Source: Fimbriosthenelais zetlandica (lineage: Eukaryota). From it: DNA of 64,000 nt. Location: assembly GCA_977030845.1 (NCBI GenBank), contig OZ365119.1, positions 11,594,001 through 11,658,000 on the forward strand, given 5' to 3'. Position 1 is the first letter of the stretch; each line of letters starts with the position of its first letter. This document shows, piece by piece, positions 45,401 to 48,400 of the stretch. The position numbers are program-made.

Positions 45401-48400
45401 ATCGTTTCCATAACTTCACCTCGATTCCACTCGACAACAACATGGACAACAATATGTACTTGCCCAAAAGTGAAACGTAAAATCCCGGCCCCTGGTCCAT
45501 CTCATGGACAGAGTTTGTGAACTATTAAAGTAGAAATGGTATGAGGAAGGTTTACTGTATGTGATGGGAGCTTTGTATAGGACGTTCATTGGTTTGTGGG
45601 GGTGTAAATGGTGTCAGGTCACAGGCAAAACAACGTGCTGAGACTGGCGCCTTGCTAGCCTTGTACAGTGTCAATATGGGTGGGCCAGTCGTGACTCCTA
45701 TTGACAGAACTAATGTCACTCCGCTGTCACATAGCTGCAGAGAGTGAAGTTTACGTTCACACTTTTGTTTATTGTCCAGGGTCTGATACAAATTAAGAAT
45801 CTATACATTTAAATGGCCGTCACCGAGTAGCCACAATACACATGGGTTCTTTGTTTATTGGTTTTGAACCCAGTTGTGTATGGGGCCTACTATTTACTAT
45901 AGATCTAGCCTGAAATACACACTGCCACTGCCTTCACTCAGCTGTTGAGCAAGTGTGAGTGACTAATGCTGAAGCATTGATTCATCCATCTGTCACATCG
46001 TATTTCATACCCACTCAAAAACATGTCTTACACGGATGTAGATCTTCACACCTTTTTGACCATGCATGGGGCAAAATATTCTAAATTAAACTGGTCTATT
46101 CCTCATAATATTATAGGGTAAGCTATCAATATATTATAGGGTAATTTATCATGATATTTTAGGTTAATACATCATAATATTATAGGGTAAGCTATCACAA
46201 TATTATAGGGCAATTAATAATAATATTATAGGGTAATTCATCATAATATTATAGGTTAAGCTATCACAATATTATAGGGTAAAATATCATGATAATATAG
46301 GGTAAGTCATAATATTATAGGGTAAACTATCATAATATTATAGGTTAAAATATCATATACTGATATAGTTTAAATATATTAATATTAAGATGGTATTAGG
46401 AGCGTTAAATTCATATTAATCCATCTTATATTTTACACAATATGAATTCAAATGATCACGATTAGATGTTAAAATATATGCATGTATATATAATATTGAT
46501 AAGTAAAATAATTAATTTATAGAGTCTAACCCGAGCACTAGCAGTCAGGATGAGGGAGGGATGACCCGGCCTAACGGGGACGCCCCCGCCTCTACTGTAG
46601 CCTTTGACAAGTTTGCTTTCACAGATGAAGATGACGAAACTACGTAAGTTGCCATTCCAAATTAACATTCATGATCAACATTTTATGCCTTTCACTCAAA
46701 CTTAAAGTCCCTTTAAATGAATATATTAAATCCTGGTTAATTTGTAGGCCCTCCTCCGCTTCCCTGTTCAGTTTTCCTCTAGATATTCTCAGGAAAATAG
46801 TCTGATATTTGGATTGATATAAATATTGTATAATTTATTGATATCTTAGGATGAGAATGTAGAAGTATATTGTGTATAACTTGTTGATTATTACAGTGAG
46901 AATGTAGAAGTATATTGTGTATAACTTGTTGACTATTACAGTAAGAATGTAGACTATATTGTGTATAACTTGTTGATTATTACAGTGAGAATGTAGACTA
47001 TATTGTGTATAACTTGTTGATTATTACAGTGAGAATGTAGACTATATTGTGTATAACTTGTTGATTATTACAGTGAGAATGTAGACTATATTGTGTATAA
47101 CTTGTTATTTTTACAGTGAGAATGTAGACTATATTGTGTATAACTTGTTGATTATTACAGTGAGAATGTAGACTATATTGTGTATAACTTGTTGACTATT
47201 ACAGTAAGAATGTAGACTATATTGTGTATAACTTGTTATTTTTACAGTGAGAAGAAGCAGCAAGTTAACCTGTCCGCTCACCGCTCCACTGAACGTGCGA
47301 GGCGAGGCCGGATCTCTAAAGGCATACATCAACTATGGTGCCTTATACCCCCCGAGTTTAAAGGCGCATCTAGCAAAGAGGTAGGCATGAAAAAATACCA
47401 CAAAAACAACCATAATAGATGGAAACCTGATAAAATACCACTAAAACGACCATAATAGGTGGAAACCTGATAAAATACCACTAAAACGACCATAATACCT
47501 GGAAACCTGATAAAAATACCACTAAAACAACCATAATAGCTGGAAACCTGATAAAAATACCACTAAAACAACCATAATAGCTGGAAATGAGACCAGTAAA
47601 TATAGGGTCTAGTCAATTCACAATCATAACATTAAAACCCACCAAAATAGGCATTATTTACTGATCTACAAAATAGGCATTATTTACTGATCTACAAAAT
47701 AGGCATTATTTACTGATCTACATATAATAGAATATCAAGTCATTCCCTCATGATGTATTAAAACTATTAAACCGCCTTACTTAGTTATCTTCTAGTAAAT
47801 AAATAATGAGTACAATCAGTGAATATTTAGAGGTTTAATCATGATAATAATTGATGTTAATTATGTGATCATGTTGTTGTAGACGTTGGTGGGGATCCTG
47901 GATAAAGTGGCCGTCTACATACAAGAGACACAGCAGAAACTAGACGCGTGTTTCCACGGCGAGACGAGCTCCGTGCGAGGTGAGTACCCTCCTCTACCTC
48001 ACCTCAACATTCACCAAAATGGCCTTCTGTTCCTATTATTTGTGTTATTGGATTATCTGTATTAATATGAATTTTACTTCTAAGTTTGTTATTAAGGGAA
48101 TTGGAGTGGGGGTGAGGTTGTTGGGGTTCTACCAGTTTCATTGTTGCCGATGTATTACACGATTATTTTACAATTATATAGCTGAAAACCTTCCCTAATA
48201 TGGAAGAGCTATATACGGAAGGCTATAAATAAATAAATGAAACTCATACTCAGGCAAAAATGTCAAATATTTTCTGTTTATTTTTGCAGATTCTGAGATT
48301 GAAATGCTGCAGCAGAAAGTGGCGAAACTGACGGAGGAGAACCTACGATATACCGAGGCCCTGAAAACAGGAGGTGAGTGCTCTATTTTATTTATTTATT

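What the first reader, a model, noticed from the sequence alone, without database searches (positions are those of the whole stretch)
46853..47253. Third gene, same pattern: nine acceptor-containing repeats before the DNA-binding exon, suggesting a genome-wide junction-amplification process
Seen: the 44-bp unit includes TTACAG|TGAGAA, and the real exon follows the last copy. Related cases are at 13432-14080, 16396-16500, 35985-36832 and a two-copy case at about 13071-13135. That makes five introns in three unrelated genes within 64 kb whose repeats straddle the 3' splice site, always with the 3'-most copy functional. Inference: either a mutational bias for tandem duplication at intron-exon junctions, or a spliceosome with a strong distal-acceptor rule that tolerates them. 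It may also be a route to intron growth or gain.
Basis: partly seen in the sequence, partly recalled or inferred. Interest (0 to 1): 0.65.

Follow-up and report, generated by a model that had tools for sequence, protein, structure and literature searches.

The report
Splice-acceptor minisatellite ("mirage") before bHLH exon
A 44-base stretch spanning the end of an intron and the first six bases of the next exon is repeated nine times head to tail, a kind of repeat already described in lancelet genes as a "mirage", so this is a further example of a known oddity.

Summary
Tandem Repeats Finder gives 46852-47253, period 44, 9.1 copies, 95% matches. All nine units end in ACAG, and the last one abuts exon 47248-47380, which has weak bHLH matches. 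The four related arrays also exist, so 5 of the 21 introns I annotated carry copies of their own acceptor junction.

Each unit is unique to its own array, so each arose in place. Some decoys match the true site exactly from -37 to +6, so the choice must depend on downstream exon sequence or on position. Using a decoy would give an early stop for 36 of 38 decoys.

A junction-targeted amplification process is not shown. Allowing for short introns, 1.55-1.83 acceptor-straddling arrays are expected among 12, against 4 seen (P = 0.05-0.09). No tandem array straddles a donor.

Not tested: organism, RNA use of decoys, and array copy number.

The parts
46852..47253 (+). 44-bp minisatellite: nine units, each with a polypyrimidine stretch and AG, plus the first 6 nt of the exon (TGAGAA). 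Eight decoy acceptors and the true one.
   Evidence: TRF; unit listing; AG intact in 9 of 9
46561..46643 (+). Putative upstream coding exon of the bHLH-like gene. It runs from an in-frame ATG to a TAC|GTAAGT donor and ends in phase 2.
   Evidence: Inferred from ORF and splice consensus; no RNA evidence.
46644..47247 (+). Intron of 604 nt (GT..AG): 208 nt of unique sequence followed by the array. It would be about 248 nt with the array collapsed to one unit.
47246..47247 (+). AG of the acceptor taken as functional (last unit, ...TTATTTTTACAG|TGAGAAG).
   Evidence: It is the only copy followed by an open frame of more than 18 codons.
47248..47380 (+). Exon encoding the basic region and helix 1 of a bHLH-like domain (44 codons from 47249), ending at donor GTAGGC at 47381.
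   Evidence: Pfam HLH E=0.0021, 18.3 bits, below the 20.7 cut-off. PDB PHO4 bHLH E=0.00076 over residues 9-39.
47117..47122 (+). Start of the decoy 'exon' whose acceptor context is identical to the true site from -37 to +6. It lies three units upstream of the true site.
13434..14079 (+). Related array: 50 bp x 12.7 in the Na,K-ATPase gene. It has 12 decoys plus the true acceptor and includes 24 nt of exon (exon starts 14056).
   Evidence: The exon aligns from residue 1 to Na,K-ATPase 530-632, E=1.5e-54.
16394..16500 (+). Related array: 36 bp x 3.0 in the Na,K-ATPase gene. It includes 17 nt of exon (exon starts 16484). Its two decoys are in frame.
   Evidence: All 36 PDB alignments start at query residue 32-37, which is the last copy.
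13072..13135 (+). Related two-copy duplicate of the acceptor junction in the Na,K-ATPase gene (exon starts 13127, decoy at 13091).
   Evidence: Not found by TRF.
35987..36831 (+). Related array: 54 bp x 15.9 in the DOMON-repeat gene. It has 15 decoys plus the true acceptor and includes 32 nt of exon (exon 36800-36899).
16265..16386 (+). Donor-side duplicate in the same intron as the 36-bp array: a 32-nt copy of exon end plus GTCAG recurs 90 nt downstream at 91% identity.

Best explanation
This is a 'mirage'-type minisatellite. A short segment spanning the 3' end of an intron and the first bases of the next exon was duplicated in tandem where it lies, probably by replication slippage or unequal exchange. 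It then expanded, partly in three-unit blocks, to nine copies. It has no function of its own. It persists because the splicing machinery keeps using the copy that is joined to the exon body. That choice is most likely guided by exon sequence beyond +6 and by the downstream donor (exon definition). Transcripts spliced at a decoy mostly carry an early stop and would be degraded. The visible effect is intron lengthening, here from about 248 to 604 nt. The same thing happened independently at four other acceptors in the window.

Shown: the repeat, its junction-spanning register, its local origin, the equivalence of decoy and true sites, and the stops that follow decoys.
Inferred: the duplication mechanism, the splice-site choice, the decay of mis-spliced RNA and the neutrality of the array.
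For: Array and register.

Local origin: each unit occurs only inside its own array on either strand, and the four units share no exact word longer than 8 nt.

Block-wise expansion: higher-order periods of 131 and 154/254 bp. The decoy three units upstream is identical to the true site from -37 to +6.

The true site cannot be told from decoys by local sequence: one decoy in this array has 0 mismatches to the true site; in the 54-bp array three decoys have 1 mismatch; in the 36-bp array one decoy has 1 mismatch and the other 2.

Decoy use gives an in-frame stop within 5-40 codons for 36 of 38 decoys.

Homology to solved Na,K-ATPases starts at the last copy (36 of 36 alignments).

All 21 modelled introns are GT..AG.

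Against: There are no RNA data, so the use of the last acceptor and the fate of decoy-spliced RNA are inferred.

The organism was not identified by any tool, so equating this with the amphioxus phenomenon rests on resemblance.

The two decoys of the 36-bp array are in frame and have no stop. Decay cannot clean those products.

Four of 12 arrays at acceptors against 0 at donors is more lopsided than a purely neutral, symmetric model predicts (expected 1.55 each). Some directional bias or selection may exist.

Copy numbers may be mis-assembled. Two of the three N runs abut other tandem arrays, and the globin paper reports a mis-assembled mirage in a draft genome.
Confidence: 0.8

Rival explanations
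1. A junction-directed amplification process. Under this reading, tandem duplication is mutationally favoured at intron-exon junctions, especially at acceptors, for example because polypyrimidine tracts are prone to slippage or because of a splicing-coupled DNA lesion. The arrays would then be enriched there beyond what intron size predicts.
For: 4 of 12 uniformly detected intronic arrays straddle an acceptor, against 1.55-1.83 expected. Five of the 8 repeat-bearing introns include the acceptor junction. The three arrays with the most copies inside genes (15.9, 12.7 and 9.1) are all acceptor-straddlers.
Against: P = 0.0525 and 0.091, so the result is not significant. Acceptor and donor straddlers together number 4, against about 3.1 expected, so there is no overall excess at junctions. 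The donor side has no tandem case, which a general junction bias would not predict. The fifth case was found by a reader who was looking for junction repeats, which is an ascertainment bias. The sample is 21 introns.
Confidence: 0.2
2. An assembly artefact. Under this reading, the array or its copy number was produced by mis-assembly or gap filling of a repetitive or heterozygous region.
For: Two of the three N runs directly abut tandem arrays (4590-4806 next to 4814, and 15562-15711 next to 15712). Repeats are reported to confound amphioxus assemblies, and a mirage was mis-assembled in a draft genome.
Against: No N lies within or next to any of the five junction arrays. The units carry structured variants in a higher-order pattern rather than identical stutter. 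Five independent loci show the same geometry. Published mirages were confirmed by re-sequencing.
Confidence: 0.07
3. A regulatory element. Under this reading, the decoy acceptors are used on purpose, either for unproductive splicing that tunes expression or as a sink for 3' splice-site factors, and selection maintains the array.
For: The AG is intact in all 38 decoys. Each unit carries the full context of the true acceptor.
Against: The arrays are young (93-98% matches), so intact AGs need no selection. Variation sits in a few shared columns. The units are unrelated in sequence across loci. Published cases show no aberrant mRNA and show copy-number differences between haplotypes.
Confidence: 0.05

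Closest known systems
'Mirage' minisatellites of amphioxus. They were first described at the Adh3 locus by Canestro et al. 2002 (Nucleic Acids Res); I saw that paper only as a citation, because it is not held. Further cases are in the globin genes BflGb6 and BflGb9 (PMC3087553, passages read), and in TnC and PGBD5 (PMC3902484, one passage read).
   Same: Both are head-to-tail repeats whose unit spans an intron-exon boundary. The units carry AG or GT signals. Unit sizes overlap (Adh3 10-72 bp; here 36-54 bp). Several genes are affected. The outermost copy is the one used. Both 3' and 5' boundaries can be duplicated; here there are five acceptor cases and one donor case.
   Different: The organism of this window was not identified. 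The genes are different (Na,K-ATPase, a DOMON-repeat gene and a bHLH-like gene). Normal splicing and length instability, shown for the published cases, could not be tested here. In the globin case the boundary units were reported to be excluded from homogenisation, whereas here a decoy three units upstream is identical to the true junction.
Intron gain by tandem duplication across an AG|GT proto-splice site. The Rogers model is cited in PMC3087553. I saw only the search listing and the start of the abstract for PMC3265369. For PMC2891723 I saw the search listing and the start of its abstract and a reference-list passage.
   Same: Tandem duplication creates extra splice signals, and splicing restores the original message.
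   Different: Here the intron was already present: 208 nt of unique intron sequence precede the array. The duplication lengthens the intron rather than creating it. The duplicated segment is mostly intronic, with only 6 nt of exon.
Human introns derived from tandem arrays, Zhuo et al. 2007 PNAS. I saw only the title in a reference list. The paper is not held, so its content is recalled.
   Same: Repeated units each offer splice sites.
   Different: As I recall it, those arrays lie in exons and produce alternative splicing among the repeats. Here the array lies in an intron and no alternative product is known.
Tandem (NAGNAG-type) acceptors (PMC2279118; search listing and start of abstract only).
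   Same: Several AGs compete at one exon start.
   Different: Those lie 3-9 nt apart and give in-frame variants. Here the AGs lie 43-45 nt apart, each has its own upstream context, and 8 of 8 decoys lead to a stop.

Membership tests
Mirage minisatellite (junction-spanning tandem repeat) | Head-to-tail tandem repeat with a unit of minisatellite size | tested here: met
   Period 44, 9.1 copies, 95% matches
Mirage minisatellite (junction-spanning tandem repeat) | The unit contains both intronic and exonic sequence of one intron-exon boundary | tested here: met
   The unit is 37-39 nt of intron ending in AG plus TGAGAA, the first 6 nt of exon 47248-47380. The exon share is small here. It is 17-32 nt in the three other TRF-detected arrays.
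Mirage minisatellite (junction-spanning tandem repeat) | The repeated units carry canonical splice signals | tested here: met
   AG intact in 9 of 9 units; across all five loci, in 38 of 38 decoys
Mirage minisatellite (junction-spanning tandem repeat) | Regular splicing is not disturbed (RT-PCR in the published cases) | not testable with these tools
   No RNA data. The sequence shows only that 36 of 38 decoys would give early stops.
Mirage minisatellite (junction-spanning tandem repeat) | Length instability, or copy-number differences between haplotypes | not testable with these tools
   Only one haplotype is in the window, and the collections that could hold others are closed.
Mirage minisatellite (junction-spanning tandem repeat) | Found in a cephalochordate genome (the only lineage in the papers I found) | not tested
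   No tool identified the organism. Rfam gave only a weak tRNA match and the Atlas search was uninformative.
Intron created by tandem duplication (Rogers model) | Both the donor and the acceptor of the intron lie in the two copies of one duplicated exonic segment | tested here: not met
   The donor at 46644 lies 208 nt upstream of the array in unique sequence.
bHLH DNA-binding domain (for the exon that follows the array) | A match to the HLH profile at the curated threshold | tested here: inconclusive
   Pfam HLH 18.3 bits against a cut-off of 20.7, E=0.0021. PDB PHO4 bHLH E=0.00076. The exon holds only the basic region and helix 1. The next exon was searched on its own and gave no HLH hit.

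The most novel reading that the evidence does not exclude
Acceptor duplications may be close to neutral in this genome while donor duplications are purged (4-5 acceptor cases against 0 tandem and 1 dispersed donor case). That would imply a splice-site selection rule that reads the 3' site from the exon side. Under that rule, junction minisatellites would be a main driver of intron lengthening, here 1.6- to 5-fold, and a standing source of new exons and introns across the genome.
Probability: 0.2. Interest if true: 0.55.

Novelty: new member of a known kind. Interest (0 to 1): 0.3.

Why it matters
Arrays of up to 15 decoy acceptors that match the true site pose a clean natural test of how a spliceosome picks one 3' splice site among equals. 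They also show introns growing several-fold by a simple mechanism. The phenomenon itself has been in print since 2002. These loci add examples and a local density figure: 5 of the 21 introns I annotated. In four searches of the held library I found no genome-wide census. That census and a measure of decoy use are the questions still open.

Tried and rejected
- Dispersed or mobile element: rejected. No unit matches anything outside its own array on either strand.
- Rfam scan of the whole window for an RNA gene or an organism clue: only a weak tRNA at 22738-22809 on the minus strand.
- Atlas search of the unexplained 539-aa ORF of the bHLH-like gene: best score 0.89, which the tool rates as a lead only.
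- Pfam on the exon that follows the 54-bp array and on its neighbouring transmembrane exons: no family. Their likeness to cytochrome b561-type ferric reductases is my recollection only.
- TRF at score 30 to recover the two-copy case under one uniform criterion: not found. I kept that case out of the main statistic.
- A simple branch-point motif scan: too crude to use.
- Reading Canestro 2002 and Zhuo 2007: neither is held.
- Test for conservation of the decoy AGs: not meaningful, because variation sits in a few shared columns.

Full report
**1. Observation**

Tandem Repeats Finder on the whole window reports an array at 46852-47253 with period 44, 9.1 copies, 95% matches and score 716. It also reports a 131-bp higher-order period of 3.0 copies.

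Read out unit by unit, the array has nine units of 45, 45, 44, 44, 44, 43, 44, 44 and 43 nt.
- Every unit ends in ACAG.
- Seven units are followed by TGAGAA and two by TAAGAA.
- Two units, the sixth and the last, carry a more pyrimidine-rich TTATTTTTACAG in place of TTGATTATTACAG or TTGACTATTACAG.

The last AG is at 47246-47247. From 47249 an open frame of 44 codons runs to a GAG|GTAGGC donor at 47381. Two refinements apply: the nine copies are eight decoys plus the true site, and only 6 nt of exon belong to the repeat.

**2. Surroundings and gene models**

The window is eukaryotic, about 40% G+C and rich in minisatellites (52 TRF rows). I do not take it for human. Introns are mostly 130-750 nt, and a Pao-type retrotransposon ORF is present. 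Three N runs (4814-4954, 11483-11624, 15712-16048) were left untouched.

Every protein search used a single exon or a single stop-free ORF.

Genes found:
- A Na,K-ATPase alpha-subunit gene on the plus strand, about 5.7-17.4 kb. The exon after the 50-bp array aligns from its first residue to residues 530-632 of a solved Na,K-ATPase, E=1.5e-54, with 73 distinct PDB sequences matched. There is also a Pfam Cation_ATPase match at 1e-06.
- A gene with 11 near-identical copies and 1 divergent copy of a DOMON-encoding macro-repeat.
- An SLC22-like transporter and a rhodopsin-type receptor, both on the minus strand.
- The bHLH-like gene that holds the array in question.

For the exon after the array:
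- Pfam HLH gives E=0.0021 at 18.3 bits, below the curated 20.7.
- The PDB search gives one hit, the PHO4 bHLH, E=0.00076 over residues 9-39.
- A later exon has a weak bZIP_1 (zipper) match, E=0.0054.

"DNA-binding exon" is therefore plausible but not firmly established.

I modelled 21 introns from ORF frames, phase continuity and splice consensus: 16 in the ATPase gene, 1 in the DOMON gene and 4 in the bHLH-like gene. All 21 are GT..AG. I did not annotate the other introns of the DOMON gene or those of the minus-strand genes. TRF finds no array of score 50 or more in those regions.

**3. Related cases**

All four related cases exist.
- 13434-14079: 50 bp x 12.7, with 24 nt of exon in the unit.
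- 16394-16500: 36 bp x 3.0, with 17 nt of exon.
- 35987-36831: 54 bp x 15.9, with 32 nt of exon.
- The two-copy case near 13072-13135. TRF does not find it even at score 30. The repeat finder gives an exact 18-nt pair with spacing 33, and both copies are followed by an AG and GTATCAGT.

A uniform probe of 12 intron nt plus 8 exon nt, allowing up to 3 mismatches, finds upstream copies for 4 of 21 acceptors. It misses the two-copy case because of an indel. The same kind of probe finds a downstream copy for 1 of 21 donors. Eight of the 21 introns contain any internal repeat.

**4. What the arrays are**

Each unit occurs only inside its own array, on either strand. The four units share no exact word longer than 8 nt. 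Each array therefore arose in place from local junction sequence. They are not a dispersed element.

The higher-order periods (131 bp here; 154 and 254 bp in the 50-bp array; 267 bp in the 54-bp array) indicate expansion in multi-unit blocks. The decoy three units upstream of the true site is identical to it from -37 to +6.

With each array collapsed to one unit, the host introns shrink as follows:

| Host intron | Present length | Collapsed length |
|---|---|---|
| 46644-47247 (44-bp array) | 604 nt | about 248 nt |
| 13314-14055 (50-bp array) | 742 nt | about 146 nt |
| 16285-16483 (36-bp array) | 199 nt | about 127 nt |
| 35790-36799 (54-bp array) | 1010 nt | about 219 nt |

The arrays have therefore lengthened their introns 1.6- to 5-fold.

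**5. How it can work**

- the 44-bp array has one decoy with 0 mismatches;
- the 54-bp array has three decoys with 1 mismatch;
- the 36-bp array has one decoy with 1 mismatch and one with 2.

Local 3' splice-site sequence cannot single out the last copy. What differs is the sequence downstream of the shared part, that is, the exon body and the next donor, and the position. From general knowledge of exon definition, I infer that the last copy is chosen from the exon side.

Translating from each decoy in the frame set by the upstream exon gives a stop within 5-40 codons for 36 of 38 decoys:
- 8 of 8 decoys in the 44-bp array;
- 12 of 12 in the 50-bp array;
- 15 of 15 in the 54-bp array;
- 1 of 1 in the two-copy case.

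The 2 decoys of the 36-bp array are in frame and would insert 12 or 24 residues. Most mis-spliced products would therefore be substrates for nonsense-mediated decay (inference).

That the last copy is the coding one is supported by homology. Alignments to solved Na,K-ATPases start at residue 1 of the exon after the 50-bp array. In 36 of 36 hits they start at residue 32-37 of an 89-residue read-through of the 36-bp array, which is the last copy. For the bHLH-like gene the support is only ORF continuity.

**6. Is there a junction-directed process?**

For one uniform set I took TRF arrays with period 10 or more and score 50 or more that lie in annotated introns. This gives 12 arrays. I dropped the following:
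- the array at 15562-15711, which abuts an N run;
- the array at 46103-46357, which lies upstream of the first modelled exon;
- all intergenic and coding arrays.

Four of the 12 straddle an acceptor. None straddles a donor.
- Null 1 duplicates one unit at a random place in the collapsed intron plus flanks. It expects 1.55 straddlers, P(4 or more) = 0.0525.
- Null 2 places the whole array at random in its intron plus 40 nt of each flank. It expects 1.83 straddlers, P = 0.091.
- Seeing no donor straddler has P = 0.18 under null 1 and 0.13 under null 2.

The excess at acceptors is therefore about 2.2- to 2.6-fold and borderline. Acceptor and donor straddlers together show no clear excess. Short introns combined with a high minisatellite density explain much of the pattern. 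A 64-kb sample cannot decide the question.

Several other arrays stop just short of a splice signal. Some start 4, 11 and 12 nt into the intron (offsets 3, 10 and 11), just after the donor GT. Another ends 17 nt before an acceptor AG. This fits arrays filling whatever space the splice signals leave free.

**7. Comparison with what is known**

[quoted passage not shown] According to it:
- they were first reported for Adh3 of two Branchiostoma species, with units of 10-72 bp;
[quoted passage not shown] - they are length-unstable, with 6 against 3 units in two haplotypes;
- they offer a model for intron gain.

[quoted passage not shown] 2002) is not held. I know it only through these citations.

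In four searches I found no genome-wide census of such arrays. This holds only for the held library and for those search terms.

The array meets the three structural criteria of a mirage. Splicing behaviour, instability and host lineage could not be tested. It does not fit the Rogers model of intron creation, because the donor lies in unique sequence 208 nt upstream of the array.

**8. Artefact check**

None of the five junction arrays contains or touches an N run. However, two of the three N runs abut other tandem arrays, and repeats are reported to confound amphioxus assemblies. Copy numbers should therefore be treated as provisional.

**9. Verdict**

This is a further example of a known kind. 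Interest is modest.

Left unchecked:
- the organism;
- orthologous loci and other haplotypes, because the homology search tools and contig collections that could hold them were closed;
- all RNA-level claims.

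Noticed in passing
window 6831-6944 and 7633-7746 (+): The Na,K-ATPase gene has two near-identical 114-nt exons encoding the same 38-residue segment, both flanked by phase-0 GT..AG sites. This looks like a mutually exclusive exon pair made by exon duplication.
   Followed up: partly
window 16285-16483 (+): This 199-nt intron holds both a donor-junction duplicate (32 nt, 91% identity, spacing 90) and the 36-bp x 3 acceptor array. 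Only about 37 nt are not part of a junction copy, so it is a candidate for an intron built largely from its own boundaries.
   Followed up: partly
window 16412-16483 (+): The two decoys of the 36-bp array are in frame (36 nt = 12 codons) and have no stop. Using them would insert 12 or 24 residues into the ATPase rather than trigger decay. Solved homologues have no such insert.
   Followed up: yes
window 23232-33900 (+): There are eleven near-identical copies and one divergent copy of a macro-repeat of about 0.87-1.0 kb, each encoding a DOMON domain (Pfam 7.5e-10 for one copy). This is a very recent internal gene amplification.
   Followed up: partly
window 4590-4806 next to 4814, and 15562-15711 next to 15712: Two of the three N runs begin right after tandem arrays, which suggests that assembly breaks at repeats. 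The N runs were left untouched.
   Followed up: yes
window 12670, 8640 and 47391 (+): Three arrays start 4, 12 and 11 nt into their introns, just after the donor GT, without including the donor. Another array ends 17 nt before an acceptor AG. Repeats seem to fill the introns up to the splice signals.
   Followed up: partly
window 48740-50419 and 50457-56687 (+): Two very long open frames (560 and 2077 codons) lie downstream of the bHLH-like exons. They are C-rich and have no Pfam family. All 18 TRF rows inside them have periods divisible by 3, as expected for coding low-complexity repeats.
   Followed up: partly
window 60244-63999 (-): An open frame of 1252 codons runs off the window end and has Pao retrotransposon peptidase, reverse transcriptase, integrase zinc-binding and DUF5641 matches. 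This is a BEL/Pao-type retrotransposon.
   Followed up: no
window 112-705 (+): A 24-bp x 25 array with 96% matches lies at the window start, outside any gene I modelled.
   Followed up: no
window 22738-22809 (-): A weak tRNA match (31.9 bits against a gathering score of 29) is the only Rfam hit in the window.
   Followed up: no
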